Positions 3,247 to 43,763 of a stretch of DNA of 64,000 nucleotides are shown in pieces (positions within the stretch are counted from its first letter, which is position 1; every line of letters begins with the position of its first letter). The stretch spans positions 30,132,001 through 30,196,000 of the forward strand of contig CM022672.1 of the NCBI GenBank assembly GCA_012295275.1, given 5' to 3'. A program made the translations under genes and the position numbers. This DNA comes from Chrysomallon squamiferum. Its lineage: Eukaryota > Animalia > Mollusca. The notes under the pieces were generated by a model, which saw only the letters and a list, made by a program, of their open reading frames with translations, had not been told where the DNA came from and did no database searches.

Positions 3247-3434
3247 ATGGATCAGACAAAACGCCCTTTGTTGATTCCACCAGAATTTGCAAATTATGCT
3301 CAAGAGAAAGGGATATTTGATATGTATAAGGTAATTTTAACAATATGCTATTAATATGCACTTTAAACGTTTAGTGTTTTAGTTTAAAAATTATTATTTT
3401 TTAAGACTTATTATAACATTATAGTAATAATAAC

Positions 3435-3469
<35 letters not shown>

Positions 3470-4413
3470 TGTTATTTATTTTTATTAATACTGATACTAT
3501 TAAATTTTACGAAACAAATGCAATTCAAGAGATGAATAATATGTCACGTTGTTTGTTACTATGATGTTTTATTTTTATATTTAGCGGTTGCTTGAACAAC
3601 TCATTATTCACAAGCCAGATGATCCTATACACTTTCTCATTGAGGAGCTGAAGAAGGATAATGACGATGGTGACTGTTATGTTCTTTCCAAATATTTTTC
3701 AACATATTTATATTTATTTAGGAAATGTCTAAGGCCACTAATATGAAATGAAAGATATTTAATGATTTATGTTCCCTTGTATATGCCAATTAAATTACCA
3801 TAAATTAATTAATACAGTGATTACAAGGCTGTAATAAATAACACAATCTGCACAAAAGTACAATAATTAAAACAATACTTCTAGGTTTTATTTTGAGTAT
3901 TACTTTAAAACAATTTCTTTCGTTTGCTTAATGGTATGAAAAAGCATTAATTACCTGTTATAGTTAAATTAAAATAAAAAGTTAATTAAGTGGAGATGAA
4001 AATAAGTATTACTAATTATTTTGTATTTGAAAGATCAACATGATGATTATGTATTTGGCTAAATACAGAATCATCCAACAATGTTTTAAACAAATTTCCT
4101 TTCTTTTCTACATTACTTTTTCTTTCTTTCTTATTCAAACCTTTTCATAATGTCTGACAGCAACAGGCATTAATAATGTTGTGAAACCAACTGCACATCC
4201 AACTGTATTTAATATAAATTTGAAAATGTTTCTCTTTTCTGTATAAAAATTTGGTTGTTTACTGTTGTTTTTTTTGTATACACTATCATACTCAGTGTTA
4301 TAAACATTCTTTATAATTATTACTACTCAGATTCTTTTTTTAATTATTCGTTATTTTAGTAGTATTATTATTATTATTATAAAAATTACTCAGATTTCTT
4401 TCATTAATTTTTA

Positions 4414-4456
<43 letters not shown>

Positions 4457-7265
4457 AAAGCAGGGGCAGATTGTGATGAGTCACAGTTTTGGTGGGGTTG
4501 GTACAAAATAAGAGACGAGGTTCCTATGTTCTTTTTAATTTCTTTGTTTCTCTTACCTTTTATTTCTTTTTCTTCATTTATTCCTTCATCTTATTTATGT
4601 TTAACTTAAATACCAGAAATGTTCAATTTAAAAAAAAAAAAAATTCTATTTAATTTTTTATTATGTATATTTTTTCTCTCTCTCTCTCTCTATAAATGAT
4701 TAGTTCCACAAGTGATAATTCTCGGCCCTCCAGCCTCTGGGAAGCGGTCGATTGCAAAGATGGTTTGTGAGAAAACACGAGCGGCACACCTCACAATGGA
4801 GAATCTTATTGCTGAAGCAGAAGTTGACGTCAAAGAAGAAGCAGAAGCTTACGTAAAGAAACACGAGGTTAGCTGAAAACAGTTTAGTAACCTGTGTTTG
4901 TGTCAGTGTGTGTCTGTGTGTGCATGCATGCTTTGTGTATGTCCATATGTGTATGTCTATATGTGTGTGGGTGTGACTATGCTTTTGTGTTTGTCTGTCT
5001 CTCTGAGTGACTACATGTATGCATTCATGTATCTATGTATAACAACAGTATAGGTTACTGATTGACAGAATCTAAGACATCACAAAAAAGTATAAGAATA
5101 TAATCTGTGAATAAATGTTAATTCCATCTCAAATAGTTAACATGACATTACAGATGTGACAAATAACTGTAGCAAGAATTAAATGAGGATTTATGTCTTA
5201 ATTGGGGTAGTTCAAATTGTTATTAATATTATTATTGCTATTAATGTTATTATTGTTATATAAACTAGGTGATATTATTAACAATCTTCTTCTTTTTCTG
5301 CTTCTTATTATCATCATTATTATTATTATCATTAATATTAATATCAACATTTTGTTATCATTATTATTAATATTATTATCATCATTATTATTACTATTAT
5401 TATTATTTCTTTTTTATAATGTAGGCGATACCGAATGATGTGTGGTTGAAGATAATACAGACAAGGACACAGCTGTTTGACTGTGTAAAGAAAGGCTGGG
5501 TGCTGGAAGGCTTTCCACAGACTCGAGACCAAGCCCAGATGTTACAGCAGATAGGAGTCTACCCCAAACACTGTGGTCAGTAGTCTAATACCTTTCTGTT
5601 ACCTCTCTCATCCATCTGTCTGTCTGTCTATCTGTACATCTGTTTGTCCTAACTTAAGTTTAGAAAGAATAGATATCAGAAGACTTTCTCGAAAAAAAAA
5701 AAAAAATTGAAAACAAAATGAAAATATAATATAACACCATATTGGAATTTGTCTCAGCATTGATACTGATTTTAGACTATTTTATGATCTGTCTGTCTGT
5801 GTCTGTCTGTCTTTCTATCTGTCTCTCTCTTTCTCTCTTTGTGAGTATGTTGTATGCAGAAAATGTGTGTCTTTAGAATTTTCCACACAAACTTTTTAAC
5901 AAGCTAAAATGGTAGAAAAGATTAGGATATATGTTTTGATGAGTGTTTCATAGACTTTCATATTATACAAAATTGTTGTCTTTCTTTTTTTTTTATTATT
6001 GTTTCATTTTTTGTATTTATTTATTCATTTATTTATGGGTTTTTTATTGTTTATTTCGTTCAGTTTTTAAATTTATTTTATTTTTTTAATTTAAAAAAAA
6101 ATTTATTGGTTTTTTTTTTTAATGTTAATAAAAAATCAAAAAATTCAATTTTGAAAATACACCAGCTTATTGCGAGTCTTGACAAAACTCAGTTCTTTTA
6201 TAACAACACTATTTGGCATATTTGACTAACTTTTTATTATTCTTTCTCTTATTTTCAGTCATACTCGATGCACCAGATACAGTTTTTATTGAACGAGCTT
6301 CAGGAAAAAGAGTTGACAAACTCACTGGAGGTAGGCAACATGGATTAAATCTGGTGTTTAGAAAAATTGAAACAATATTTATATATGTACAAAATACAGT
6401 AATAATAATTATAATAATACCAGCTGAAAGTAACAGTGGATATAGTATAGTAGTAGTAGTAGGAGGAGTAGTAGTAGTTGTTGTTGTTGTTGTTGTTGGT
6501 GTAGTAATATAGTAGTTGTAGTAGTAGTAGAGGTAGTAGTTGTAGTAGCTGGAGTGGTAGTAGTAGTATTTAGTAATTAGTGCTGATGGTGGATATAGTA
6601 ATAAAAGGGATAGTAGTTATAGTAAAAGTAACAGAAGTAGTACTAGTGCTAGATGTGATAATAACAACAATAATTATAACAATGACACCAATACTTTAAA
6701 AAAAAAAAAATATATTAACACTAAATGTATAAAACACACATATATAAAATGTATTTTTAATATATTTTTTGTTAATATTATCACTCAGTAACAACAACAG
6801 TAATAACAAACAATGAAAATAATAATTAGTTTCAACAAATAAAACAAATAAAAGAAAAATATAAATTGGGAAATCTTTTTTGAAAAATGTTTATTTTGTG
6901 ACACACTACAAATACGGGTGTTTGAATGTTTGTGCAGACATATACCACACAACATTCGACTGGCCTGCTAACCCTACAATCCAGGGGCGACTGGAAGAGG
7001 TCCCCGGCAACACGGAAGAAGACATCGTGAACAGACTCGTTATTTATCATCGCTACATCGATGGCATCCGTCGCTGTTACGACCATGTTGCCAAGACGAT
7101 TAATGCCGACCAGCCAAAGGCCGATGTCTTTGACCAAGGTAATCACAACACTGTTTCAGTTGTCTCTTCCCTGGAGTTGTTTTTTATTATTATTATTATT
7201 TTGTTGGGTTTTGGGGTTTTTTTTTTTTAATTTTATTATTTTATTATTTATTGTGATGATGTTGC

Positions 7266-7297
<32 letters not shown>

Positions 7298-8965
7298 ATT
7301 AATTGTATTATTATTAAACTTTGATACTATTATTATCATCATAATAATGATATTATTGTTAGTAGTAGTAGTTGTAGTAGTATCACTATCAGTATAATGT
7401 TTTTGATTATTAAAATTAATATTATCATCATTAATATCATTATCATCATCATCATCATATTATTATTTTTATTATTATTATTATTATTATTATGTTTTAT
7501 TATCATTATATTATTATCATTATTATTATTATTATTATTAATATTATTATTATTATAGTATTATATTATTATTATTATTATTACTATCATTATTATTATT
7601 ATTACTATTATTACTGTTATTTTGAATTCAGTGTACACATTCCTGTGCAGTCAGCCTAGGACCAATGCTCCTCACATTCCTAGGATTGTGTTGCTGGGTC
7701 CCACAGGGAGTGGAAAAGGAGTACAGGCAGCCTTGTTAGCAGCCAAGTACAACATTGTCAATGGTGAGATGTTCTATTTATAGTAACTGTACACGTTTAT
7801 TTAATTAATAGGTTTGTGCGTAAATCTCTTCATGTGTTTGTGTTTGTCAGTATGTATAAATATACATACTGATCTGGATACACAGATGCACAGTGAAACA
7901 AGACACACAGTCACATACATACATACAGACAGACAGAGCACAGTTGTATGTACACACACATTCCTATTCACACCTACACATGCACATCCACACCCATTCA
8001 CACACACACTCATACACACACTGATCTACACTCACACACACACTCATTTACATACAACACACACAGAGATAAAAACATACACACAAACGCATGCACACAC
8101 TTCAAGCGTTAATATTAAAGGGAGGTAATTATTATTTCAGTATCGTGTGGTAAGCTGATCAAACAGGCTATAGAGGATGAGAGGAAAGCAGGTTTGGCAG
8201 CCAGAAATTATGTAGAAAAAGACATACCAGGTATCTGTTTATTTATTTATTTATTTACTTAATTATTTATTTGATTATTTACTTATTTATATATTTATAA
8301 CTTTATTTATTTATTAATTTGCATCTGAAAGTTGTTGTATTTGTTTAGATCTCTATATCAGAAAATTATTAATTTCTTAAAGTATTGTGTTTATTTATCT
8401 GTATCAAATGTTAAAGACAGATCAGTGAATGATTAGATATATTAAAATAATAATAAAAGTTATAATAATCAGTAATTAAATATTCCGCAAGCAGACTTAA
8501 GATTTATGATGAATGTATGTGTCTGGGTGTCTGTATGTATGTGTTTGTCTCTGTATGTGTTTATAGGTTTGTGTATGTTTGTATCTGTGTTTTAATGTGT
8601 TTGTGAGTGTGTAATTTATTTAATTATTTACTTACTTACATACTTACTTACTTTGTGTCAGTGTCTGTGTTTTAATGTGTTTGTGTGTTTGTAATTTATT
8701 TGATTATTTACTTATTTACTTACTTACCTACTTACTTACTTACTAACTTACAGTGCCAGACAATCTAGTGATGACAATACTAAAGGAATGTCTGAGTCAG
8801 CTGTACATACATACTTACTAACTTACAGTGCCAGACAATCTAGTGATGACAATACTAAAGGAATGTCTGAGTCAGCTGTACATACTTACTTACTTACTTA
8901 CTTACTTACAGTGCCAGACAATCTAGTGATGACAATACTAAAGGAATGTCTGAGTCAGCTGTACA

Positions 8966-9001
<36 letters not shown>

Positions 9002-9214
9002 GTGCCAGACAATCTAGTGATGACAATACTAAAGGAATGTCTGAGTCAGCTGTACATACTTACTTACTTACTTACTTACAGTGCCAGACAATCTAGTGAT
9101 GACAATACTAAAGGAATGTCTGAGTCAGCTGTACATACTTACTTACTTACTTACTTACAGTGCCAGACAATCTAGTGATGACAATACTAAAGGAACGTCT
9201 GAGTCAGCTGTACA

Positions 9215-9246
<32 letters not shown>

Positions 9247-9301
9247 GTGCCAGACAATCTAGTGATGACAATACTAAAGGAACGTCTGAGTCAGCTGTAC
9301 A

Positions 9302-9333
<32 letters not shown>

Positions 9334-9388
9334 GTGCCAGACAATCTAGTGATGACAATACTAAAGGAACATCTGAGTCAGCTGTACA

Positions 9389-9424
<36 letters not shown>

Positions 9425-9831
9425 GTGTCAGACAATCTAGAGATGACAATACTAAAGGAATGTCTGAGTCAGCTGTACATACTTACTTACTTACTTACTT
9501 ACTTACAGTGCCAGACAATCTAGTGATGACAATACTAAAGGAACGTCTGAGTCAGCTGTACATACTTACTACTTACTTACTTACTTACTTACTTACAGTG
9601 CCAGACAATCTAGTGATGACAATACTAAAGGAATGTCTGAGTCAGCTGTACATACTTACTTACTTACTTACTTACTTACAGTGCCAGACAATCTAGTGAT
9701 GACAATACTAAAGGAACGTCTGAGTCAGCTGTACATACTTACTTACTTACTTACTTACTTACTCACAGTGCCAGACAATCTAGTGATGACAATACTAAAG
9801 GAATGTCAGAGTCAGCTGTACATACTTACTT

Positions 9832-9878
<47 letters not shown>

Positions 9879-9955
9879 TTTACTTACTTACTTACTTACA
9901 GTGCCAGACAATCTAGTGATGACAATACTAAAGGAACGTCTGAGTCAGCTGTACA

Positions 9956-9999
<44 letters not shown>

Positions 10000-10105
10000 T
10001 TTTACTTACATACTTACTTACTTACATACTTACTTACTTACTTACTTACAGTGCCAGACAATCTAGTGATGACAATACTAAAGGAACGTCTGAGTCAGCT
10101 GTACA

Positions 10106-10137
<32 letters not shown>

Positions 10138-11215
10138 GTGCCAGACAATCTAGTGATGACAATACTAAAGGAACGTCTGAGTCAGCTGGACTGTGTCACT
10201 CGGGGCTGGGTTCTTCACGGCTTCCCTCGATCTCGCGACCAGGCCGAACAGCTGGAGAAAGAAGGTTACACACCAAACAGGTAACACGTCTGTTAGCAGC
10301 CTGTGATAAATACACACAGTAAGCCTCATCCTGTGTCTGACAGGTCAGTCAGATCCATTGCAGATTACTAGTTACTAGTTACTACCCATGAACAATTTTT
10401 TTTTGTTTAAAGTTACAGTGAGACAGGTTTGTATAAAACTTGGGCTACAAGCTGTAAAATACAAATAGTGTTTTGATTTTGTCAGTTTTCACAGATATCT
10501 CATAAATCACTAAGAAGATTAGCCCTGCAGAATGTTTAATTTAAAATAGTGAAAAAAGTATGTTTTCAGTTGTATCATGAAATGATAAAAAGCATAAAGT
10601 AAAACAGAGATTAAAAATTAATATCCATCTTTATTTATTCTAAAACAAATATCAGTATTTACTTAAGCAGCATTTGAAGGAGTTTAAGCAAGAACTATTC
10701 AATAACTCGATGGATTCAGTTGTTGTAATTAAAAAAAACCACATGGTTCAAAATTGTAGTAATTGAAATAATACAGTGGTTTTGAATAATTCAGACAACA
10801 TTATAGTTTGAACTGGAGCAGTGTTCTCTGCTGAAGAACATCCAGTAACAGAATGGTTCTGTTTTATAAACGATGTTTATTTATCTGTTTACACTTCAGA
10901 GTGTTCTTCCTCGACGTTCCCAACGACTCCGTGCTGGAACGCCTCACCCTCAGGAGGACTGACCCAGTCACAGGAGAACGATACCACCTCATGTACAACC
11001 CTCCCCTCACCCTCCAGGTCAAAGAACGTCTGCAGAGACACCCCAGAGACAGCGACGATGAGGTCAGGAAGAGGTTGGCGCAGTACCACGCCGAGGTTGA
11101 GGACCTCGGTGACCTCTACGAGAATGGACAACACATAAACGCTGACCAAGATCCACATACTGTGTTTGAGTGTCTGGAGAGCATTATTGTTAACCCACTA
11201 CCTAAACGCTTTTAA
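3247..11215 (+). CDS. AK8: Adenylate kinase 8 (two AK domains), 10 coding exons, ~478 aa
   Basis: GT-AG exons 3247-3330, 3585-3669, 4704-4867, 5425-5575, 6259-6330, 6938-7138, 7632-7763, 8141-8230, 10139-10280, 10900-11215 join in frame (1437 nt). Motifs: P-loops GPPASGK and [47 protein letters not shown], and C-terminal IIVNPLPK, all characteristic of AK8. Confidence 0.95.
8701..10188 (+). repeat. Tandem array of 16 copies of the AK8 exon-9 splice acceptor plus the first ~50 nt of the exon, separated by variable (CTTA)n linkers (15 decoys + the real exon)
   Basis: Unit is ttacag|TGCCAGACAATCTAGTGATGACAATACTAAAGGAA(C/T)GTCTGAGTCAGCTG + tacata(ctta)n. Exon-like starts at 8754, 8829, 8912, 9003, 9082, 9161, 9248, 9335, 9426, 9509, 9599, 9682, 9769, 9902, 10052 and 10139 (real). 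Confidence 0.95.
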
Positions 11216-12014
11216 TTCTTTTTAATGTTGTATGTGAAAATCTGTGGTTGAAGAGCATTATCCATATCCCATTAATTATACAGTTTTAATTTATAGGTTT
11301 TTAATTTATGTTATCTGTGAAATCCAAAGAGCATCATCATTCATCTGTTAATTAAACATTTTTAATTTACAGATGTTTTATTTATTTTATCTATAAAATC
11401 TAAAGTTGAAATGCATTATCATCTATTCAGTTCAAACAAACAGTTAAGATGTGTTTCTCATTAGTTATTTTTAAGTTATTTATTTATTTTATATGTGAAA
11501 TGCATTACCGTCCAAAATTGACAATGTGATACTAAAGTGAACTTTTTGAGTAAGATATTTATTTATTATTAGTATTATTATTATGCCTTCATTCTTTAAT
11601 TGTTGGTTTGTGTAATATTATTATATTACTTTATATATATAAAAAAAAGAAGATAAACACACTTTATTGTACAAAACAATATTGTCAACATTACCTGTAA
11701 AAAAGAAAATACCTATTAATTAATTAATCATTTAACAAATTTATTAAAAATATTTATTTTTATTTCTTATCAAATAAAGAACTTAAAAGTTAGTATCATA
11801 ATTTATTAATTTATTAGTGTGGTTAAAAGTAAATGTTTTATGCATTATATTACATTAATATACATTTCCTATCAAATGAAGAACTTAAAAACTTCTACTC
11901 CAGTATAATTTATTAATTTATTTCTTTAGATTAATGTTCATTGCAATGTATTAGATCTTTCAGGCAAATTTTATAAAATAATTTGTTGTTGCTTTTGTCC
12001 ATGAAAGCCATTAT

Positions 12015-12158
12015 TGGTTGAGGATCTCTTATCTGAAATTCCTGTATCTGAAAAGTTCCAAAATTCATAACTTTTTGCAAGCAACTGAAACAGTGGACAT
12101 CCTACGGTTTTTTAATGGTTTAAGGTGCAGTCGTTTCATATAAGGTATTCTCAACCTG
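12015..12158. mobile_element. Short Tigger/pogo-type MITE remnant (MER46/Tigger4-like ends)
   Basis: Ends ggttgaggatctcttat...taaggtattctcaacctg form inverted repeats. The left part is similar to the element at 14895-15198. Confidence 0.5.
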
Positions 12159-14894
12159 CAGATTATTTCACATTTTAATGATTCCTTCCTAGAGATTATT
12201 TTCATCGTCAGAAGGAAACTATTGTTAAAAAATCAAAATAAATACAGCTTGAATAAATGAGTATATTTCAAGTCATTGTTTTATTGTTTTTTCTTTCTAT
12301 CTGAATATAGAAAGTTTATATAATAAAGGTATATAAAACAAGAGGAATGTATGTATCGTGCTGTATCATGAGAAAATTGTCATTTATAATGGTTTGTATA
12401 TCTATACATGTATACAGGAGGGGAGGGGTTCAGGTGGGCTGAAAGTATATTGTGGGCTGTATAACCATAAATGGTAGGTAGAATAATGTTGGAATAGTGT
12501 TGATACATTTCTATATGGATTTAGTATCAGTGCCCTTGGTAGGGCTGAAAATGGATTAATTAGTCAGTTCAATATTTGTTTTTAATTTGTGAATTTAACT
12601 ATCTGGAACCAATTTCTTGCTCAGTTCAATAATTAAAAAGATCATTTCATTGTTAACCTGCATTAAGTAAACTCGTGTATTAAAACAAAATATTTTTTAC
12701 ATACAAATCATACACTGTTATTGGAACCTCGTTAATGAAAAAGTAATAAAGATGTTTAAAAACGTATTTTTTTTTCAAATTTATAATTAATTGTGATATT
12801 TCAAAACCAAACAGCATTAATATATTTTTCTAATTTATATCCTAATTAACTTTTACTCTTACAGACATCAGCAAACTATCTGTCAAATTCTATCTTCTGT
12901 TCATTTATACTGCTCAGACCAACTTTAATATGGCTTGACACCATCCAGTTGTTTGCAGAAGATACGTCAATGACATCATTGCATGGACTTTTTGTGATGT
13001 ACTGAAAATGTCGTGCAATTATAACTTTATTTTATTTTTTATTTTATTTTCAAGGATTTCTAGTGTTGGGCACATTATCTGGTTTCCCCAGTGTGAAATA
13101 ATTGAATAAAACTCACTTTCCAATAGTGTTAGAAAACAGAAGGAAAAAATTTAAAAATAATAAAATCACACACACACATACACATATAAACAGAAATGCA
13201 TTGTTATTTAAATATTTATTCACAAATATTAAAATAGAGTTTCAAAAATTTATAGTATGAAATTTCAAAACAAAGACTACATACAAAATTAACTTTTATG
13301 TTAAGAAAAAAATACAGCTGAATGTATGTTAAAATAAAGAAATAAATGATACAATAATAATGATGATAATAAAAAGTAGATGTTCTTATTAATCTCAGAA
13401 TGTGGATGCTGCCATTATTAATCTGTTACAATGAGCAATTAAAAGAATTATGAAGTTAAGTAAAAATTTAAGGCATACTGACTTTATATCAGCATTTGAA
13501 TTTACCCAAGATTTTGTGATGTCCACCAGTTTTTTGGTTAAATTCTTACCCTCATAATGGTGTCTACAATGTTTGTTAAAAACAACATCACCATGGAAAT
13601 GTATTTCAATAAATCCCTGATACTGGAGTGCATGACATTAATATAAAAAAAACAATGATCGTTTATTTTATTTTTCTTAGATCAAAAGACAAACATTATA
13701 AAAATAGATAAATAGAAATAAATTTTTACTCATATATATATATGAGTAAAAATAAATATCTGTAAATAATGATAAAAAAAAAATTATAAATAAAACAGAC
13801 AAATAAAAATAGATATTTGTATAATCATACCTAACAGTATTTTATTATTAATAATTAACAAGGTAGTCAGAGGTGGTCAAACATATTTTTTATGTGCCCT
13901 GATATAAAAAAAGAAACCTGCATTAGTACACACATAAGTCCTGTGTTACAGATTTCCTGTGTGAATAATTATTACTTTACAGTGAGCAGGGTTACCCAAC
14001 TGTCAACCTCCATTACATACCTGCCCAACAATCAACAGCAAGGAATCTTTTATATGCTCTTTCTAACACACAGAAAAGCACAAGATACCCTTTTTCATTA
14101 ACCAATCATGCAGCAGTGGCTGGATTGGGAAAAAGTCTCTGAGATCTGCATTAAGTTAACAAAAAAAATATATCTATTTCTTCATACTTTAAAAACTTAT
14201 AATTTATCATAAAGTAATGTTCTTTACAATTTTATGTTATAACTTGTAATATAGATATGAAATTTTTTGCAAAATTCAAAATGGTCAGAAACTGACTCAG
14301 TGAAAACAGCCAAGGCCATAACTAGACAGTTCTTGAAATGAGACAAAAACACTTAGTCACTGATATTGATGTCTGACGTCTTTGAAGTCAGTTATGTCTT
14401 TCATCACAAGAAGACTTCAAACAGAAACCACAGACACAAACGAATTCATTCAGTGGATATCATTTCTATCAGAGTAGAGATTTATATTTTATAATTTTAA
14501 AATAAAATCTTTGAAATAAAAAAAATAAAAATTGTCAGTTTGCCTCATTTGTCACAGCGCGTTACAGGCCTAACAGCAGTTACAAACTGACAAACGTCAA
14601 GTTAATAATTACTTGCTTTTGTTACAATTACCATTGTTATATACTGATGAATTTTTGTTGTTGTTGTTTGTTCTATTATTATTATATTTTTTTAAATATC
14701 TATGACATGCATTTTATTTCATGTCATACTGTTTTTTTATATATCTCACAATAACATTATAGATAACAAAAATAATAATGTATACTAATAAATTACAGTA
14801 TATTACAGTGATTTGGAATATTTTATGACATGATATTTTAATAATGACATCAGATAATATATCAGAATATTACAATGATATTTAGTCAATGGTA

Positions 14895-15198
14895 TAGGCT
14901 GAGGATTCCTTATCCAAATTCCAAACTCTAAAACTTTTTTCCAAGCAGAAGAAACAGAGATACCTTACAGTTTTTTTATTGTTCTGCTAACATAAACTTT
15001 ATACTATGTCCCAAAGTATTCAAACTATTATTTTAAAAAATCCTGCAAACCACTTGTATAAGCTGTAAATGAACTACAAATGGAATTTATATTTAGACTC
15101 AGATCCTATTCTCTATTCTTATATTCCTAAATCACAAAAATTCTGAAATCTGAAACATTTCCAGAAACCAAGCATTTTGGATAAAGGTTTCTCAGCAT
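14895..15198. mobile_element. Tigger/pogo-type MITE (MER46/Tigger4-like)
   Basis: taggctgaggattccttatcca ... ccaagcattttggataaaggtttctcagcata are imperfect TIRs in a TA context. Internal ccaaactctaaaactttt and ctgaaatctgaaacattt resemble MER46-type ends. Confidence 0.55.
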
Positions 15199-15468
15199 AT
15201 AACTTGATTTTACATTTAATTCTTTGTGTTGCCTGCTCACCTAATATATTCTTTAAGACATAAAAAAAAATGGTTTCCTGAAAAGTCTCATTTAAATGTT
15301 AAGAACATAAGTAAATCATGGTTACATTGCATAGATTATGATACAACATCTTTCAGTGACATCATATTATCAAAATGACATCACAGTTATGTTAATGAGG
15401 TATCACATGTTTCAGTGATATTGCATGTAATTATGACATGAATGACTCTGATCTCTCCATGCTGGTTT

Positions 15469-17083
15469 TCACGTCAGGTCTTGTTTGAGCTGTAGAAACT
15501 GTTTTCCAGAAAAGTCTCGTTTAATTCCACGAGGCAGTCCTCGGCACGATGTCAGATTGATCGAGTTCAGACTGGGACACCTCTTTAGAACAAACCTAAA
15601 ACAAAAACAACCTGGAACTTTATTTTACATTGATCGAGTTCAGACTGGGACATCTCTTTAGAACAAACCTAAAACAAAACAACCTGTGACTTTATTTTAC
15701 ATTGATTGAGTTCAGACTGGGACACCTCTTTAGAACAAACCTAAAACAAAAACAACAAAAACAACCTGGAACTTTATTTTACACTGATTGAGTTCAGACT
15801 GGGACATCTCTTTAGAACAAACCTAAAATAAAAACAACCTAGAACTTTATTTTACATTGATTGAGTTCAGACTGGGACACCTCTTTAGAACAAACCTGAA
15901 ACAAAAACAACCTGTGACTTTATTTTACATTGATTGAGTTCAGACTGGGACATCTCTTTAGAACAAACCTAAAATAAAAACAACCTAGAACTTTATTTTA
16001 CATTGATTGAGTTCAGACTGGGACACCTCTTTAGAACAAACCTGAAACAAAAACAACCTGTGACTTTTATTTTACATTGATTGAGTTCAGACTGGGACAT
16101 CTCTTTAGAACAAACCTAAAATAAAAACAACCTAGAACTTTATTTTACACTGATTGAGTTCAGACTGGGACACCTCTTTAGAACAAACCTAAAACAAAAA
16201 CAACAAAAACAACCTGGAACTTTATTTTACACTGATTGAGTTCAGACTGGGACACCTCTTTAGAACAAACCTAAAACAAAACAACCTTTTGATTGAGTTC
16301 AGACTGGGACACCTCTTTAGAACAAACCTAAAACAAAAACAACCTGGAACTTTATTTTACATTGATCGAGTTCAGACTGGGACACTTCTTTAGAACAAAC
16401 CTAAAACAAAACAACCTGGAACTTTATTTTACATTTTACTGTTACATCCCATACACATATCATTAAGTTTACATTTTACTATTAGACAACCCAGACACAT
16501 ACTTAAATTTAGATTTTACTATTAGTAATGGTCATTATTTAACTATTACTAATGGTCATTGTTTGATTATTACTAATGGTCATTATTTGACTATTATTAA
16601 GGGTCATTGTTTGACTATTACCAATGGTAGCTGTTTACTGACCTGATGGACATTATGCTGACCGATGTCCCTGCTAGATTCAGTGTGTGTATTGGAGAAC
16701 TGACTGAACCAGAGGCGAGAGCTTTCAGAGCCACGTCAAGAATTTCAGTCGGGTAACTGTTCCACGAGAGATCTAGATCCGTCAAACTGTGTCTCCACTG
16801 CAGTGTTTCATTATTATTATTATTATTATTATTATGATTATAACAGCAATAATAAAAATGACAGTTGTAACATTAGTAAAAACAATAAATTATAACTGTA
16901 GCAGTACTAGTACTAATAATAATAATTAGCATATCAACAGAAACATTAATAACACTGAAAATAAAAATAATATGACAAGAGTAATAACAACAAAATAACA
17001 ATAACAAAAGCATTAATAATTATCAGTGTAAAATTCATATTAATAAAATAAATAATGTTGATGATTATAATAATGAAAATGAA

Positions 17084-17121
<38 letters not shown>

Positions 17122-19584
17122 AAATATAATTTTAATATTACAAAATATTATCATTATTAGTACCAAAATAATAACAAGAAATAAAATAAAATAATAAAAT
17201 CATCATTAACCATATTAATACTAACACTATTAATAATAATCATAAAATTAGACAAAATCAAATCATCATTAAATCAGCAAATAAAATAATACTAATACTA
17301 ATAATATATACATATGTATATATATAGATAGATAGATAGATAGATACTGTTAATACTAATACTGTATATATTCTATTAGTACTAATAATATAGATAAACT
17401 ATTAATACTAATAATATACTTTTAATATTAATAATATGCATATACTATTAATATTAACCATGTACAAATATTATTAATGTTAATAATATACACACATATT
17501 TGACATGTGAAATACCTTGGTAATCAGTGGTTTGAAATCTTGGTAACTGTTGGATTTGATCACAGAACTCTGAGACAGATACAGCTGCTGAACGCTGCAG
17601 GCAGGCAGACTGAGCAGAGCGCTGCTGGTGAGGTTGCCGCAGCCACGCAGATCAAGTAGCCGTAGTTTTGTTGATGTCACCAACATTCTGCCGAAATAAT
17701 TCACAGAACATTTAGAAACTAATAGAATGGAAAACAAACATAAAACTATTTTTTTGAGTAATTTATGATATTTACATCAGTCATTTCATTACATGTATAT
17801 TTTCTTTGTTTTTCCGTTGCTCATGACCATTCTTTGCTAAAAATAAAGTATGATAATAAAATAATATGAAAAGGCTGCACTAAACATCCAGTCATGTCTG
17901 ACTTCTCATTTCCTTCATCAATAAACAACGAACTATCTTCATAATGTTTTCTTGCAAGCTCAGCTGGTTTCAGTTTTAAGTAATTTCACTAGTTTCATGA
18001 AATGACACGTTTACTGCAGTATCAAAACTCAGTGAATAATCAACCATATTCACTACATTTAATGTATATCATTCATTCTTAACATGTAGGTTGGGGTGTA
18101 TGTTGCTCCCTTTTGTGCCTGGTACATTAGGAAGGGGGACACGGACTGGTAAATATGAGAAGATTTTCTGTCCATCTGTTTATGTTTAATCCTTGTTTGA
18201 TGAGGGGGGAGTATGAACCTGACAAGACACCCTAAAAGGGACATGAGCCAAAAGAAAGTTTTAGATTGGCTCATTTGTACTGGTCCATTTGTGCAAAATA
18301 TACAGACCAACTGCTTGTCCTGAAAACCAAACCATTAATCCCAGACAAAGAGACAAGTATTAGTGTTCTTCTCTACTTTTTAAAAAAAGAGTCAAAAAGA
18401 CTGCTCCAGACAGTGTTACCTCTGAATGAAGTTATCATTAATTCCCAATCCGACATTCATTCCTGTTGTTGTGGTATCACTAACAGCAAGACTGAGTTCT
18501 TCCAGGTCTGGAAATCCACTAGACTCAGTCTAATAAGAAACAGACAAACATTATCTATGTGTTAGTAATGACAGAAATATCTTAAATTAAGAATATAAAA
18601 GAATAAAATAAATATGCATCTGAAAATCACATTATCTATGTCTTACTAATGGCAGAAGAAAATTAAATATGTATTTAATATATATAATACAGATATAAAT
18701 CTGAAATTTACATTATTATACACAAACATACACACAAACACACATATACTGAGACACAGTCACACAGATAGACATACATACACACAGACACGTACACAGA
18801 ATGACCCACTATACACATACTCAGAAGTTCTGACACACACACACACACACGCACAAAATTATACAGACACACAGCTAGAAACACACACACAGACACATAA
18901 AATATACAACACACACAACATCTCACAATTTATCTCACAATTTATTTACAACTCAAAAAAAGCGAATCATGATAATCATAAAAATGTCGTAATCGTTTAA
19001 GATAATCAAACATAATCAAGGTGAGTATGAAACTATGATATGTAATGTTAATCACAACATCATCACATCATCGTCATCATCTTCATCATCATCACCTACA
19101 CCAACCTTCTGTGTTACTGCTGTAGCTCTGAATTTTGAATTAGCAAACCGAATCACTCGAAGTTTGCGGCAGCTTGTCTGAAGTTTCTCGATATTCAGTG
19201 AAACAAAATCAGATGAAAAACTTGCATTGGAAATGTCCAAGTGTTCCAGATTACAACATGAGATCTGTGAAAATAAAATTAAAAATAATCTGCTATCTGG
19301 ATTTTTGTGATTATAATATGATAATAGATATAAAACAAAACAAAAATAATAAAAATAAAAAATAAATTCTTTAAATAAACAAATAAACAAATAAACAATT
19401 GGGTATCAAGATTTTATGATATAATTTATTTAAACCCAAACATCTCTGAATGTATCAGATTATAATGTGTTAAAATAAATAATGATAATAATAATAATAA
19501 TAATGATAATAATAAATAAATAAATAAATAAATAAATAATATCTGGATATCAAAATTATTTGAGATATGTAAAAAATATCATAG

Positions 19585-19618
<34 letters not shown>

Positions 19619-21767
19619 AAAACAACAACAACAACAATAATAATAAGATAAATAAATAAATAAAATATGAATATCAAGATTACATCAGAAATGTAAAAAC
19701 AAAAATCTCCAGATTTTTAAGAACACAATGTATTTTGTGTTGTTATTTTTTTATTCACTGATTGCTGTTTTAAATTTTCTTTTTCACTTTGTTTTCTCTT
19801 TTTCTTCTTCTTACCATCAACTGATTAAGTATGGCAGCGAAAGCTTTAAAATTATTTCCTCCAATATTGAGCAGTCGTAGATGTGACCCAACTGACCCTA
19901 ACACACGATTCAAACACGAAGGTGACGTGGCGTCAGTCTGTAATAATAGTAAAATAAAACTGTAAAAACAATTAAAATATTAAACAATAAAAATCTAAAT
20001 AACAGCATCAGTCTGTAATAATAGTAAAATAATACTGTTAAAAAACATTTAAAATATTAAAAAATATCAATCTAAATAACAGCATCAGTCTGTAAAAATA
20101 ATACTGTAAAAAAACATTTAAAATGTTAAAAAATAAAAATTTTAAATAACAGCATGCGTTAGTGGTATTATTATTATCAGTATTAGTAGTAGGAGTAGTA
20201 ATAGGAGCAGTAATAATAAAAAATATTATTTGTACCATGCATTAGTCTAATAATAATGATACAATGAAAATAATAATAATAATAACACCAATAATAATAA
20301 TATTGAAAATGATAAGATACCAATAACAGTAACAACAATAATAACAATAATAATAACAATAATTAATACTCACTGATGTGAAAGCTAACTCTAACTCTGC
20401 CAGATCTTTGCACTGATCAACCAATGAAATGACAGCATCACTGCTCAGTTTTGTGCAGTATGATAGGTTGATGGATTCCAAGAGGGGGCACTTTTCAGCC
20501 AATAACTTCAAAGGAGATATAATCATACATGCACAGTGATTGGTTAAAAGATTTTCACACAGGATATTTGATGATCCATCAGTTTAATAAAGAAACAGTA
20601 TGAATCAATACAATTAATTTGATCTAAACAATGTGTGTGTGTGAGTGTGTTATTTTTTAATACAGAGAAAATAACTGTTTGGAAGTAAAAAAATAGACTT
20701 AAGCTTATTGTAAGAATCATATATTTCCACTTTAAAATAAACAAAATAAGCAATCAGTCTGAAGGATAATACAATAAAAACTTAATGCAAATCGCAAGAT
20801 CTCGCCAAAATAGCCCTACTTGCAAATTGGTGGACTAAAGCAATTGTGCTGTAATGGGAGGCCATGATCAGTGTTCAGTTATTAACTGTTCCAATCGCAA
20901 ACGTCTAGGAAATGCATATTGGAAACGTGTGTGGGTAATGGCTTCATGTAGAATTTAAAAAGATTTTAATGTTACAGCAAACATGAGGGTTTGTTAAGCA
21001 GATTTTTAAGGTGGGAAATCGGTGAACGACAAGAAACATGTGGACTATATACCCATCCTGAATATGGGACAGGAAATTGTCACAACACCTAGGGTAACAA
21101 AAAACAAATAAAATGAACGACATTGTTCAGATAATTCAGAGAACAACAGTTTCAGTTATGTTCTTAATTATTCAGTCTACTCAACTAGTTGAGGTGTTGG
21201 TTGCTGGCAGTGACAAATAGCAGCGGTTGTACAAGTATGTAGGTGTTTGTGTGTGTATGTGAGTAAAGCATACAATCTTCAATAAAACAACTGTATGTTA
21301 CTCTGAACCAAATGATTTATTTATAGAAAAATTTTTAAGCATAAAGTATTTATACTTGTGAGTGTTTGCATTAATTACACCTAACAATAACTGTAATCAG
21401 ACAAGTAAGGAAATAAGTTGCTCACATTTCCTTCATAAACAAAAGATTTACTGTATGTTTTGTTTGTTGAATATAGTATGTGGCCATATTGTCAGAGTTC
21501 AGTTAGAGATGTGTCTGCTACAAAGGTATAAATACTCTGGCTGTAAATGGTATCGCTACAGAGACTTGCTGAACAAACAAGTTATTACCAATGTTTGCAG
21601 TGCATCTGTTGGGGAGGGGCACCTGCTACCCCTAGTACATAAGAATACAGGCTCCCATTTTTATAGATGGGGGATGATAGGCTGGATAACAGCATTTATG
21701 TATATTAATATTATGCTTACTCATACATAGAGAAACAAATTATATATAATTTATATATACACACACA

Positions 21768-21825
<58 letters not shown>

Positions 21826-23670
21826 CAGTGGTACCTTGAACTACAAGTTTAATTCATTCCATGACCCAGCTCATAACTCAATTTGCTCGTATATCAAATC
21901 AATTTTCCCAAATGAAATTAATTGAAATATCATTAATCCATTCCATCATCCCAAAAACGACCCCAGTTTTTTGTAGCCTGTTTTTAAATAAGAAAAATGT
22001 ATTCATAAATTATTAATATTGTATAAAAACAAAAGAGAATGTAAAGAAATAAATTGATTTTGTAGTGTACAGGGTTAGGTTTTCTCCATCTTTTCATGGT
22101 CAGAGGTCCACAGCTTATAAATTATTTTAATGCCTTTGGCTGGACTTACATCCTTTATCGACTCCTTCTGCTTCAGTATGGTACACATCGTAAAAGTACT
22201 ACACTCGTACTGCCTAGCCATGTTGACTACATGCACACCTCTCATGTTTTTCATTGATTTCATGCTTTAATTCAATGGACATCATCCACTTTTTCTTGTC
22301 AGCACTGTCTTTGCACTCACTTTCTTAGTGCAGAAAACGCAAGCACAACACAACAGAGAAGCTTCCACAGCGAGACAACAATGTCAAGCAATTGAGTGAG
22401 ACGCGGGATGCTGGGCAGATGTTGTGTTGTTCGTTGCGCCAACTAGCAGCGGTGTATCTGAAGCTTGCTCATAACTCGGATTCTGTATTACAACTCAGAC
22501 CAAAAAACTGACCGGGCGACTTCTCGTAACTCGGAAAACTTGTAAGTCGGAGCACTCGTAAGTCAAGATACCACTGTATATAACACACACACACACACAC
22601 GTACATGCATACATGATATACTGAGATGCAAAAATACACCCTGATTTTGACATGGGGGGTATTTACAATATTTATGCATGCATAAACAAATTATCTGAGA
22701 AATATTTATAACTTTTCAAACTTTTAAACGCTCGTATGGAAATCCTGTCAAATGTTCAGTTTGTACTTTTTAATGAAATAGTCTTTTAATCTGGCGTTAT
22801 CAAAATGTGAAATACCTTAATTGCAGATGTAGACAGTTTTTTCCATGAAGACAAGTTGATACTCCTGCACTGGGAGAGTCTATTACTGCACAGCCAATTG
22901 ATGGTCTGGTCCTGAGCTTTAATCCACCCATAGGACAAGTCAACTTTCTGCCATAGGGATGGATGGCAGGTGTGTTCATGCCACAAATGACAAACCTTAG
23001 CAGCCCTGAAAAATAAACCAAAATGAATTAGAACGTTTTTCCCTGTTATTAAATATATCTTTACAACAATTTATTTTAAAAAAATAAAAAAAATAAAAAA
23101 TTTATTAATTTCACCTGCAGAGAAATGGCAAAGCTCCACCACTGTTGACTGCAAAGTGAAAAATCTTCAACCAAATTTCTGGAGGCAAGGACGGAACAGA
23201 AAGATTCTTAACGGCTGCATCAAACTCAGTCTTTGATGAGTTTTTGGACCGTGTGTCACTTTTGTCAGAAAGCTCAGTCTGGCCGTCAGCTTCTTTGTGT
23301 TTTTTCTTCTTTGAGTGTTTACATCTTTTTCTCACTTTTGATAAACTATAAATTAAAAACAAAAATAAAATATTAAATAAAATAACACATATGTGTGTGT
23401 GTATGATTGTACACATATATACAGGGTTTCCATAAAGTTACTACAGAGTTATTTGTAATAAAGAAATGTCATGTTTAGACCAAAAAATTATCAGAAAATA
23501 AATGTATTACAACAGAAAATATTCTAATAATATAAGTAATCGATTTTATTTACTACAGTTATAATAAATGTTCGATTGTAAGCCATCAGCTTCAATGCAT
23601 TAGACAACATGAAAGCACACTATGACAAACTGTATAGTAACTTGAAAAACACCCCATATATATGTATGTA

Positions 23671-23713
<43 letters not shown>

Positions 23714-24194
23714 AATATTAATAAATGTTAAAATTAGTATTTTGTAAATTAATATGAGATTTGGTTACATTGTGAAGTTAAATGATTAATTAATTCACAT
23801 CATTAACAGATTATTTATTTTCATTAATTTCATTATTTTTATTATTTATTTATTTATGTAAGATTATGAAGATAACTGATTTATTTACTGTCATTATTTT
23901 ATTTTAATTATTTTTATTTATTCATTTATTTATTTGTTTATTTATTATTACTTTTCAAGAATGATTGTTCTCCAAAGAAACACGTTTAAATGGGTGCTCT
24001 GATCTATGTGAAACGAGTGTCTACCTGTTCTTTTTCTTGTCGAGGCTGGACGAACTGTCGTCAGGGAGGTAGTCGGAATCGTCAGACTCATCAGACGGCC
24101 ACTCATCTCCTTTTCGAACGTTGAACGAAAACAAAATCTGGTTCTTAGGGTCTTTATTGTAACCAAGTATTCCTCTTTGCCGTTTTCTGGACAT
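15469..24194 (-). CDS. FBXL6: F-box/LRR-repeat protein 6-like, 10 coding exons, ~522 aa
   Basis: Minus-strand GT-AG exons 24194-24025, 23345-23115, 23005-22816, 20505-20374, 19937-19815, 19264-19106, 18529-18420, 17687-17516, 16797-16643, 15595-15469 join in frame (1569 nt). F-box LPPEIWLKIF...ALPFLCRAAKVCHLW; LRRs GFPDLEELSLA, LRLLDLRGC, WRHSLTDLDLS; C-terminal CPSLNSINLTSCRGLPRGIKR, as in FBXL6. Confidence 0.9.
15556..16434 (-). repeat. Tandem array of 12 copies (~73-nt period) of the FBXL6 last-exon splice acceptor plus the first 40 nt of the exon (11 decoys + the real exon)
   Basis: Minus-strand unit is gtaaaataaagttccaggttgtttttgttttag|GTTTGTTCTAAAGAGGTGTCCCAGTCTGAACTC(G/A)ATCAAT. Exon-like starts at 16400, 16327, 16270, 16188, 16115, 16041, 15968, 15895, 15822, 15740, 15668 and 15595 (real). 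Confidence 0.95.
16525..16628. repeat. ~24-nt minisatellite (4-5 copies) next to the FBXL6 exon-9 donor
   Basis: taatggtcatt(a/g)ttt(g/t)actattac is repeated 4 times, plus a partial copy. Confidence 0.7.
19930..20155 (-). repeat. Three-copy tandem duplication (~75-77 nt) of the FBXL6 exon-5 acceptor plus the first 8 exon nt
   Basis: gc(g/a)tcagtctgtaa at 19930, 20005 and 20082, which is ttacag|ACTGA(C/T)GC on the minus strand. Only the 19930 copy continues into the exon. Confidence 0.8.
20854..21069 (+). mobile_element. Degenerate THAP zinc-finger coding fragment (probable transposon relic) in FBXL6 intron 3
   Basis: Broken frames read MGGHDQCSVINCSNR ... RVWVMASCR..KDFNVTANMRVC* ... GKSVNDKKHVDYIPILNMG. 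This fits the THAP pattern CxVxxC...W...R...RVC...AVPT-like box, with a stop and frameshifts. Confidence 0.55.
21826..22576 (-). mobile_element. Non-autonomous pogo/Tigger DNA transposon (deletion derivative)
   Basis: TIRs CAGTGGTACCTTGAACTACAAGT / revcomp CAGTGGTATCTTGACTTACGAGT, flanked by TA. The internal minus-strand ORF 22075-22263 (RGVHVVNMARQYECSTFTMCTILKQKESIK...) resembles the CENP-B/HTH-psq N-terminus of Tigger transposases. Confidence 0.8.
23422..23656. mobile_element. Possible Tc1/mariner-type MITE
   Basis: tacagggtttccataaagttacta ... tagtaacttgaaaaacaccccata are imperfect TIRs flanked by TA. Confidence 0.4.
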
Positions 24195-25035: not shown

Positions 25036-25435
25036 AACTGTAGTCACAGTAGTGTAAGTTCAATTTTGTATTACTGTCAGTGTCATTGTGTTACAGCTGT
25101 TACAAACTTAAAATAATAATTTATTAATTATTATTATTCCTATATTCTTCTTCTGATTATTATTATTATTATTATTATTTAAATATACCACTATTTTCTT
25201 TTGCAGAAATAAATGTTGGACACTTCAGGACTTCAAGTAATGACAAAAAAAAAAAGGTTGTTAGGGTCAGTAAATTCTAGAAGTGATGGAGAATATGAAA
25301 TTAATTTAACAAAAAACAACAAAAAAAAAACTGAAAAAAAAAAGAAACAAAATCCAGAACAAGGGAAGAGACAAATTTACAGAAAACTTTATCTTAGACG
25401 AGGTGAATACTGGAAGTGATTCAGAGAATTAAAAT

Positions 25436-29801: not shown

Positions 29802-29850
<49 letters not shown>

Positions 29851-32800: not shown

Positions 32801-34257
32801 TCATAATTATTTGCTTGACAGACCAGTGCCTGCAGATGACAGTAATTATAGACTCATTAATTAGAATGTTTGCGGAATTTTTTATTTTTATTTTTATTTT
32901 TTGGTGATGCAATATACTATGGTTGGCACTGAAATTAAACCAGATATTTATTTATTTATTTATTTATTTGTTTGTTTGTTAATAAAGGTAAAGGAAGATT
33001 CTCAGATCTAGAGAGACAACAACTGTGTGAGGCTGTAGAAGATGTAATGAAAAAGTACAATATTCCTAGTGACCAGTACCAACATCTTCCCTGGGCAGAG
33101 ATAGCCAGCAAAGTGCCCACTCGGACAGTGCGTCAGTGCAAGAAACACTGGTTTGTCCACTACCTGGTCAGTGAATCGGCACTGGCCATTTGTTTTGTCT
33201 TCTGCCTCTCGTAAAAGAGAAATGTTTTGAAATTAGTTTTTTGTTTCAGAGTCCTGTTATAATAGAAATATGACACTGATCATTAAGACATTATGGTAAT
33301 GATGTTGGAAAACCAATTTCATTGAAATATTTAATGATTAGGCCATCGTGGAGTATTTGTGTGTGGATGTGTTTCTTTCTTATATCTTTTTTTTTCTCCA
33401 GTGTTAACTTAAGGCAGCAGATCGTCATGTTGTTTCTATTATAAAACAGATTACATATAAAAAAGAAAACATTTCAACTAATGACAAACTACTTTTCCAA
33501 ATATTGTTTTAATCCAGGCTCAGATTTTTTTATAAATATAAACAAATACATCAGATCAGCATTTAACACAACAAATTAAGATAGTTTGTAAAAGTGATAG
33601 ATCCTTGTATTCACTTCATTTTGTTTTATTTTCTTGCAGGCTTTTTCGTATTCATGATGACGATAAAAAACGTAAACGAGTATTTGACAAGACAGAAAAC
33701 AAAAGATTGTTCATTAAACTGTGAGTAATATACTTCTGGCAGTAGTTCACTTCTCATTCATAGGACTCTGGTTCACTGCTCTTAATGGAGTCTGAGTGAA
33801 CATTCCTTTGATTTAGTAACTAATTATATCTCGAACAAAAATTGTTTCTAACAAAATAGCTAAATATATTATTTTAAATCTTTAAAATTGTTTGTTATCA
33901 TAGATAATTAATATTTTGATAAAAAAAAAAATATTAAAACTCAAGTTTTAACAATTTATGAATCACCAGTTACTGTATCTTTCTTTCTTATGTAAATGTC
34001 AATTTCAGGATCAAAATACAAAAATTCCTATAAATATAAAAAAAATGATGTATTTCCCTGTGTTTTTTTTTTTCATCTGTGGTGGTTTTTGTTTCAGAAT
34101 AAATGAAGTTGAAGCAGCTCATGAGTTTGACATTGACTGGTCTGAGATTGCCAAGAAATTTGGCAAGTAAGTTTAGTGGTGAAGTCTCACCACTTCACAA
34201 TAGACAGATACTGAGTTCGTATCCCTGCACATGCTTCTGAGTCAGAACTCGTTTACA

Positions 34258-34305
<48 letters not shown>

Positions 34306-37630: not shown

Positions 37631-37734
37631 TAATAATATAGTAAAAACAATTGAAATGTTAAAACATAAAAATTTAGATAATAGCATTAGTCGGTACAAA
37701 TAATAATACTGTAAAAACAATTAAACCGGCAAGT

Positions 37735-43726: not shown

Positions 43727-43763
43727 TTATTATTATTTTTATTTTGCAGAAAGATTTCAAGTA

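What the first reader, a model, noticed from the sequence alone, without database searches (positions are those of the whole stretch)
8701..20155. Recurrent splice-acceptor-anchored tandem arrays (decoy 3' splice-site arrays) in two neighbouring genes
Seen: three unrelated tandem repeats within 12 kb, on both strands, share one architecture. Each unit is the intron 3' end + AG + the first 8-50 nt of the downstream exon (AK8 exon 9 x16, FBXL6 exon 10 x12, FBXL6 exon 5 x3). The array always lies upstream of the exon, and the functional acceptor is always the last copy in transcript order. In nearly all units a GT falls at, or within 1 nt of, the end of exon homology (CAGCT|GTACAT, CAAT|GTAAAA, ATGCT|GTTATT), so each decoy looks like an AG-microexon-GT cassette. 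Known: exon-intron-boundary minisatellites ('mirages') were described at the amphioxus Adh locus, but I know of no mechanism for them. Inference: three of 18 introns suggests either a splice-site-targeted duplication process (e.g. R-loop or lariat-templated repair at 3' splice sites) or a splicing mode that tolerates or uses many identical acceptors. This is the best candidate for an undescribed system in the window.
Basis: partly seen in the sequence, partly recalled or inferred. Interest (0 to 1): 0.85.

Follow-up and report, generated by a model that had tools for sequence, protein, structure and literature searches.

The report
Snail splice-acceptor "mirage" minisatellites
In two neighbouring genes of a likely marine snail, short stretches spanning an intron end and the start of the next exon have been copied head to tail 16, 12 and 3 times, yet the RNA seen for the two larger arrays fits use of the last, true copy, so these are likely harmless examples of a repeat type already described in lancelets as "mirages".

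Summary
The three arrays are real: 16 units before AK8 exon 9, 12 before the last FBXL6-like exon, 3 before its exon 5. Sequence of the extra units of the two large arrays occurs in a DNA run of another study, so they are not assembly artefacts; RNA contigs fit use of the last copy, without stacked microexons. Array 3 was not tested with reads. "Array upstream, true acceptor last" follows from the geometry of any tandem duplication across an acceptor. Enrichment is not shown: 3 of 41 acceptors and 0 of 41 donors are spanned; placing the window's 14 genic duplications at random gives P=0.07 for three acceptors. The GTs at unit junctions are a nominally unlikely coincidence (about 0.004-0.007, post hoc) but score as poor donors. 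This is a new molluscan example of amphioxus "mirage" minisatellites; the scan noted the same before in other invertebrate genomes. Likely mechanism: slippage duplication, array turnover, and exon definition choosing the acceptor nearest the intact exon end. One untested twist: in array 2 every acceptor reads AG|GT, so mis-splicing would regenerate a donor. No genome was available for a genome-wide test.

The parts
8721..10188 (+). Array 1: 16 units of (TACT)n-AG plus first 50 nt of AK8 exon 9; the 16th is the used acceptor (AG ends at 10138)
   Evidence: unit junction also in runs X2 and X7 as a loose end at 10188
10139..10280 (+). AK8 exon 9 (true exon, 142 nt)
   Evidence: open gene model; tblastn 79% to named AK8; RNA contigs X8 and X9 join it to exon 10 by a GT..AG joint
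3247..11215 (+). Adenylate kinase 8-like gene, 10 coding exons, 478 aa
15556..16433 (-). Array 2: 12 units of intron end-AG plus first 40 nt of the last FBXL6-like exon; the 12th is the used acceptor (G of AG at 15596); alternating unit variants in the middle
   Evidence: variant units in runs X2, X7, X8
15469..15595 (-). FBXL6-like last coding exon (to the stop codon); begins with GT, so the acceptor reads AG|GT
   Evidence: X9 RNA contig leaves the genomic sequence exactly at this acceptor
19933..20155 (-). Array 3: 3 units of 64-72 nt of intron end plus 5 nt (8 with a mismatch) of FBXL6-like exon 5; the third is in frame with the exon (G of AG at 19938)
   Evidence: not tested with reads
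19815..19937 (-). FBXL6-like exon 5 (true exon, 123 nt)
15469..24194 (-). F-box/LRR-repeat protein 6-like gene, 10 coding exons, 524 aa
8584..8733 (.). Purely intronic 80-nt x1.9 duplication directly in front of array 1
16421..16628 (.). Two purely intronic duplications (40 nt x2.6, 24 nt x4.8) filling most of the 242 nt between the exon 9 donor and the first acceptor of array 2

Best explanation
The three arrays are tandem copies of an intron end plus an exon start that likely arose as ordinary slippage duplications in a duplication-prone genome, likely grew by repeat turnover, and are likely tolerated because the spliceosome picks the acceptor next to the complete exon, which the RNA contigs for the two larger arrays fit. 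Steps: (1, inferred) a 70-90 nt segment that happens to straddle an acceptor is duplicated, with 3 nt of microhomology at the array 2 junction, 1 nt at array 3 and none at array 1; (2, shown by geometry) all extra copies then lie in the intron upstream and only the last is followed by the rest of the exon; (3, inferred from shared variants) unequal exchange or slippage multiplies and mixes the units, which drift without coding constraint; (4, outcome seen in contigs for arrays 1 and 2, mechanism inferred) cross-exon definition with the downstream donor, or with the 3' end signals for the last exon, selects the last AG; (5, inferred) rare use of a decoy mostly meets an early stop, and selection keeps only arrays that splice correctly.
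For: Real in other samples: unit junction as loose end at 10188 in DNA run X2 (another study than the possible source run) and in X7; array 2 variant at 15614 in both, at depth 21.1 against 7.4 and 148.1 against 62.9 in the flank, in keeping with its 3 copies in the window, though the tool warns that depth is no copy number. Splicing: X8 has one 1678-nt contig passing once through exon 9 into exon 10, its 1069 unlaid upstream letters fitting 983 nt of coding sequence plus 86 nt of 5' end; X9 has a 606-nt contig that leaves the genomic sequence exactly at the last acceptor of array 2. General duplication background: 14 genic duplications with units of 20 nt or more, 11 of them purely intronic; expected 1.0 on acceptors and 1.0 on donors, seen 3 and 0; one paralogue of the Myb-repeat gene pair carries a 33-nt x25 array in an intron where the other has none. 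Neutral decay: the commonest changes in the exon-derived parts are CpG transitions (9 of 15 decoys in array 1, 9 of 11 in array 2), those in array 1 amino-acid changing. Literature: same architecture with normal splicing in amphioxus BflGb6 and Adh3 (PMC3087553, passages); exon-centric proximity rule for introns over 200-250 nt (PMC9225289, passages); microhomology-mediated tandem duplication is common and mostly neutral (PMC13167724, abstract).
Against: All three junction-spanning arrays are on acceptors, none on donors, and P=0.069 is not far from significance. GT within 1 nt of the homology end in all three has nominal probability 0.004 (0.007 if array 3 is given the wider window it needs), unexplained except as a post hoc coincidence. 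Array 1 has no microhomology. Both RNA libraries hold some unspliced array sequence (graph branch after 10188 in X9; 43-nt decoy-variant contig at depth 4.8 against 11.1 in X8), which may be pre-mRNA or DNA but may be decoy use. The first acceptor of array 2 lies 242 nt from the upstream donor, where the intron-centric rule could favour it. RNA evidence is two contig sets of one study; contigs drop rare forms; the exon 8 to exon 9 junction itself was not displayed; array 3 is untested.
Confidence: 0.75

Rival explanations
1. Duplications arise preferentially at 3' splice sites (for example through polymerase pausing, R-loops or the pyrimidine-rich microsatellite tracts there), so acceptor arrays are a biased mutation class, still without function.
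For: 3 acceptors against 0 donors; three further intronic duplications end 19-37 nt from a splice site; array 1 is seeded in a (TACT)n tract that serves as the acceptor's pyrimidine tract.
Against: P=0.069 for acceptors, 0.33 for any splice site, on a window picked because of the arrays; closeness of 9 purely intronic duplications to splice sites is not significant (Fisher P=0.38; the two in FBXL6-like intron 9 left out because they fill it); 0 of 23 introns in the other three genes; both donor and acceptor mirages occur in amphioxus (PMC3087553).
Confidence: 0.12
2. The decoys are used at a low or regulated rate and tune output; in array 2 each decoy is also a ratchet point, because splicing exon 9 to any of its AG|GT acceptors regenerates a donor (CAG|GTTTGT) that could re-splice to the last acceptor.
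For: Decoy acceptors score like the used one, some higher; the regenerated donor scores above 55% of 31 real donors, and GTTTGT is a modelled donor elsewhere in the window; 2 of 15 decoys of array 1 give open in-frame insertions of 29 and 79 aa; array 2 decoys give a shortened C-terminus in a last exon, where junction-dependent decay would not be expected (the decay rule is recalled); array sequence is present in both RNA libraries.
Against: An exon starting with GT is common (5 of 32 here), so AG|GT may be chance; arrays 1 and 3 lack it; units decay neutrally; no contig shows an exon joined to a decoy; F7 and amphioxus pseudo-sites stay silent (PMC1557585 abstract; PMC3087553 passages).
Confidence: 0.08
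3. Each unit is an AG-microexon-GT cassette that is spliced in, singly or in stacks.
For: GT at or near the end of the exon part in nearly all units, nominal P 0.004-0.007; the array 3 cassette would be 9 nt and in frame.
Against: The GTs score below 97%, 90% and 94% of 31 real donors; those of arrays 1 and 3 are at the 23rd and 45th percentile of ordinary intronic GTs, that of array 2 at the 89th. Cassettes of 49 and 40 nt shift the frame. A stacked 49-nt cassette would break the X8 contig and would branch after 10187, whereas the branch in X9 lies after 10188, the unspliced unit junction. The last copies have no AG where a cassette would have to rejoin.
Confidence: 0.03
4. The arrays are assembly artefacts.
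For: No long read was seen that spans an array; array 3 was not checked in reads.
Against: Units differ by shared point variants and tract lengths; junction or variant units of arrays 1 and 2 occur in runs X2 and X7.
Confidence: 0.02

Closest known systems
Amphioxus 'mirage' minisatellites: globin BflGb6 (acceptor), BflGb9 (donor), Adh3, troponin C, PGBD5 (PMC3087553 and PMC3902484, passages read; the original Adh3 paper of Canestro et al. 2002 is not held, and is known to me only through these)
   Same: [quoted passage not shown]
   Different: Here a gastropod, three arrays in two adjacent genes, all on acceptors; up to 16 copies against 3-6 at BflGb6; copy-number polymorphism and somatic instability, reported there, were not measured here.
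Human F7 intron 7 37-bp VNTR (PMC1557585, abstract read)
   Same: Minisatellite whose edge unit spans a splice site; identical pseudo-sites are functional but normally silent; the site nearest the exon body is used.
   Different: Donor side, mirror polarity; mechanism tested there by mutation (oriented scanning), not tested here.
Internal tandem repeats at exon-intron boundaries in human segmental duplications (PMC2812944, passages read); intron gain by tandem duplication (PMC3265369, PMC4974935, search listing only)
   Same: Tandem duplication touching splice sites as a source of gene-structure change.
   Different: Those cases create new introns or alternative forms; here no new intron or exon is seen.
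Microhomology-mediated tandem duplication (PMC13167724, abstract and opening of the introduction read)
   Same: Short single-copy segment duplicated between microhomologies, then expanded; mostly neutral.
   Different: Microhomology here is 3 nt, 1 nt and none, too short to establish this route.
Recursive splicing at AG|GT ratchet points (recalled, no paper read)
   Same: Array 2 acceptors read AG|GT and would regenerate a donor of ordinary strength.
   Different: Known ratchet points lie in very long introns; here steps would be 57-82 nt and no intermediate was seen.

Membership tests
Mirage minisatellite | Head-to-tail tandem repeat whose unit spans an intron-exon boundary of the host gene | tested here: met
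   (array 3 carries only 5 nt of exon)
Mirage minisatellite | Splice dinucleotide kept in many or all units | tested here: met
   AG in 16 of 16, 12 of 12 and 3 of 3 units; scores like the used acceptor
Mirage minisatellite | Normal mRNA still made from the authentic site | tested here: met
   Arrays 1 and 2 only, one RNA contig each (X8, X9); array 3 not tested; rare forms not visible
Mirage minisatellite | Signs of repeat turnover (shared variants, distinct edge units) | tested here: met
   Alternating unit types in array 2 units 5-9; TACTAAC variant only in units 1-2 of array 1
Mirage minisatellite | Copy-number polymorphism, germline or somatic | not testable with these tools
   Only assembled contigs were available; depth is no copy number
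Microexon cassette array | Donor of ordinary strength behind each unit | tested here: not met
Microexon cassette array | Inclusion in mRNA | tested here: not met
   Arrays 1 and 2, contigs only; array 3 not tested
Recursive splice sites | AG|GT acceptor that regenerates a usable donor | tested here: met
   Array 2 only, by sequence and score; not met by arrays 1 and 3
Recursive splice sites | Splicing intermediates or lariats at the site | not testable with these tools
   No raw or nascent RNA reads among the 9 runs listed
Splice-site-targeted duplication process (proposed) | Excess of acceptor-spanning repeats over a shuffled null | tested here: inconclusive
   Window only: 3 seen, 1.0 expected, P=0.069; no genome held

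The most novel reading that the evidence does not exclude
Acceptor arrays arise in excess in this genome and survive by self-correction: where the exon begins with GT, as in array 2, each decoy is a miniature ratchet point, so that splicing to the wrong AG regenerates a donor and the spliceosome steps along the array to the true exon. Mirages would then be natural, copy-number-variable substrates of recursive splicing, and AG|GT acceptors should be over-represented among long arrays genome-wide.
Probability: 0.08. Interest if true: 0.7.

Novelty: new member of a known kind. Interest (0 to 1): 0.2.

Why it matters
As found, it extends mirage repeats to a gastropod and gives a natural test bed for 3' splice-site choice: up to 15 near-identical acceptors are passed over, which speaks for exon definition in a mollusc with introns of a few hundred bases. 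My six searches on this topic listed no molluscan mirage and no genome-wide test of acceptor against donor bias, but the library lacks most subscription papers. It would matter more if a genome-wide bias or stepwise re-splicing through array 2 were shown.

Tried and rejected
Whole-genome scan: no genome held. Read check of array 3 and of the first units of array 2: not obtained, so these stay open. Original Adh3 mirage paper: not held. Notes on this genome: none; notes holding all the words for a genome-wide null: none. PMC8724738 (passages) did not bear on the question. Closeness of purely intronic duplications to splice sites: not significant. A 188-nt duplication at 30482-30870 looked like a fourth acceptor array but is intronic: its frames close and the gene model is open without it. 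Microexon cassettes and assembly artefact: rejected above. Lack of cover in parts of run X7 and the depth step at 10188 in X9 (25.3 against 11.4) were not used as evidence. Limits of the statistics: score matrices rest on 31 donors and 28 acceptors of this window; one paralogue and one uncertain donor were left out of them; the models of the Myb-repeat pair and the bromodomain gene rest on open frames and splice dinucleotides, not on homologues; the 14 duplications were chosen by thresholds of mine (period 20 or more, match 75% or more, score 100 or more, plus one found by BLAST), three of them are mostly microsatellite, and one exonic and one intergenic duplication were left out of the count.
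Full report
What is there. The window is 30% G+C. The left gene is adenylate kinase 8-like: its last exon is 82% identical over 104 aa to the Gigantopelta aegis protein, the best of 303 hits, and a 10-exon model gives an open 478-aa frame. The gene facing it is F-box/LRR-repeat protein 6-like (one hit, 80%, same species), 10 coding exons, open frame. The host is therefore likely a gastropod; no whole genome is held.

The observation. Tandem Repeats Finder and a unit-by-unit cut confirm three arrays. Array 1 has 16 units, each a (TACT)n tract ending in AG plus the first 50 nt of AK8 exon 9. Array 2 has 12 units, each about 33 nt of intron end plus 40 nt of the last FBXL6-like exon. Array 3 has 3 units, 64-72 nt of intron end plus 5 nt of exon 5 (8 nt with one mismatch). 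In each, only the last copy in transcript order runs on into the rest of the exon. This polarity needs no special process: a tandem duplication across an acceptor always leaves one complete intron start, extra junction copies, and one complete exon behind the last copy.

Real or artefact. Nine runs of three studies hold the stretch between the two large arrays; four were laid on 10095-15645, which holds the last copy of each. DNA run X2, from another study than the possible source run, and run X7 show a loose end at 10188 that is the unit junction of array 1, and both hold the array 2 variant at 15614, at about 2.9 and 2.4 times the flank depth; the window has that variant in 3 of 12 units. 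The tool warns that depth is no copy number, so this is agreement, not a count. Array 3 was not checked in reads.

Which acceptor is used. In RNA run X8 one contig of 1678 nt passes once through exon 9 and joins exon 10 by a GT..AG joint; its 1069 letters upstream were outside the stretch laid, and fit 983 nt of coding sequence plus 86 nt of 5' end, so the exon 8 junction is inferred, not seen. A repeated 49-nt cassette would have broken such a contig (inference from how contigs are built). In X9 a 606-nt contig covers the last FBXL6-like exon without differences and leaves the genomic sequence at the AG of the last copy, with 222 nt that do not lie on the array. The last copies have no internal AG at which a cassette could rejoin, so these mRNAs use the last acceptors. 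Against a wholly clean picture: X9 branches after 10188, at the unspliced unit junction, and X8 holds a 43-nt contig with a decoy variant of array 2 at depth 4.8 against 11.1 for the exon. X9 also covers part of intron 9, so pre-mRNA or DNA is a sufficient source, but some decoy use is not excluded. Both RNA runs come from one study.

Is it more than chance. Over 41 modelled introns in five genes, 3 acceptors and 0 donors have a junction copy in the same intron. Of 14 genic duplications with units of 20 nt or more, 11 are purely intronic; random placement expects 1.0 on acceptors and 1.0 on donors, P=0.069 for three or more acceptors and 0.33 for three or more of either, on a window chosen because of the arrays. 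Nine intronic duplications are not significantly near splice sites (P=0.38). One of two paralogues further right gained or kept a 33-nt x25 array in mid-intron that the other lacks. The genome seems to duplicate short segments readily, wherever they lie.

The GT at the junction. A random junction has GT within 1 nt of the end of exon homology in 16% of 196,785 trials, so three of three is nominally 0.004, or 0.007 with the wider window that array 3 needs under strict homology. I cannot fully dismiss this, but it was noticed after the fact. In arrays 2 and 3 the GT was already in the parental intron, just behind 3 nt and 1 nt of microhomology; in array 1 it is formed by the junction, with no microhomology. 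Scored on 31 donors of the window, the three GTs fall below 97%, 90% and 94% of them. Cassettes of 49 and 40 nt would shift the frame.

History of the units. Variants are shared among units: array 2 alternates two unit types in units 5 to 9; the first two units of array 1 differ from the rest. The commonest changes in the exon-derived parts are CpG transitions, in 9 of 15 decoys of array 1 and 9 of 11 of array 2; those in array 1 change the encoded residue. This fits neutral turnover of intronic DNA.

How the last AG likely wins. The decoys are not weak: they score like the used acceptor, and two in array 2 and one in array 3 score clearly higher. What they lack is an exon behind them. In human data, for exons between introns over 200-250 nt the splice sites closest across the exon are preferred, while short introns follow the opposite, intron-centric rule (PMC9225289, passages). 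The first decoys lie 523, 242 and 284 nt from the upstream donors, so arrays 1 and 3 are in the exon-definition range and array 2 is borderline. Transfer of this rule to a mollusc is inference. If a decoy were used, 13 of 15 in array 1 and 2 of 2 in array 3 meet early stops, 2 of 15 in array 1 give in-frame insertions, and all 11 in array 2 replace the last 42 residues by a shorter tail, 16 residues for 10 of them.

The one twist. The last FBXL6-like exon begins with GT and exon 9 ends in CAG, so splicing to any array 2 acceptor regenerates CAG|GTTTGT, which scores above 55% of real donors. Mis-splicing there could be corrected by a second step. Exons starting with GT are common (5 of 32), arrays 1 and 3 lack the feature, and no intermediate was seen; I give this 0.08.

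Comparison with what is known. Amphioxus globin BflGb6 carries tandem copies of the 3' end of an intron plus the 5' part of the next exon, BflGb9 the donor version, with normal splicing by RT-PCR and unclear origin (PMC3087553, passages); Adh3, troponin C and PGBD5 are further cases (PMC3902484, passages). Human F7 intron 7 is the donor-side mirror, with silent but functional pseudo-sites (PMC1557585, abstract). Repeats at exon-intron boundaries were surveyed in human segmental duplications (PMC2812944, passages). Microhomology-mediated tandem duplication is reported as common and mostly neutral (PMC13167724, abstract). No supplements were read. Earlier unchecked notes of this scan describe such arrays in annelid, clam, octopod, sea urchin and shark genomes, on acceptors and on donors; one reports equal rates in its genome, another an excess at donors only. 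I did not test these; they gave me the F7 lead and agree with a reading I had reached before the look-up.

Verdict. Observation confirmed with small corrections; a new member of a known kind; interest 0.2. Open: genome-wide bias, rare decoy use, array 3 in RNA, copy-number variation.

Noticed in passing
window 25207-35481 and 43750-52422, + strand: Two tandem paralogues of a gene with Myb-like DNA-binding repeats (Pfam; the likeness to TTF1 is recalled) and the same exon layout; the first has a 1056-nt, 97% identical duplication inside its large lysine-rich exon.
   Followed up: partly
window 48520-49340: 33-nt x25 purely intronic minisatellite in the second paralogue only; the same intron is 1595 nt there and 326 nt in the first. 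Shows how fast such arrays arise here.
   Followed up: partly
window 37678-41067, + strand: Decayed LTR-retrotransposon-like coding region between the two paralogues, in several short open frames with gag-, protease-, RNase H- and integrase-like motifs (labels recalled from motifs, no family search).
   Followed up: no
window 16401-16642: Two intronic duplications make up most of the 242 nt between the exon 9 donor and the first decoy of array 2; collapsed, the intron would be roughly 85-100 nt. Lengthening may have moved it from intron to exon definition and so allowed the array; the order of events is unknown.
   Followed up: partly
window 9901 and 10051: Use of the 14th or 15th acceptor of array 1 would give open in-frame insertions of 79 and 29 aa in AK8; the other 13 decoys meet early stops.
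   Followed up: partly
window 55600-63378, - strand: Gene with a bromodomain exon (Pfam) and an open exon of about 3.8 kb.
   Followed up: no
window 27853-28377 and 44462-45024: The first modelled intron of both Myb-repeat paralogues does not fit in phase with a plain GT donor; a GC donor or a missed small exon is possible.
   Followed up: no
window 14373-14558: Very high contig depth in runs X7 and X2 in the FBXL6-like 3' region points to a dispersed repeat there.
   Followed up: no
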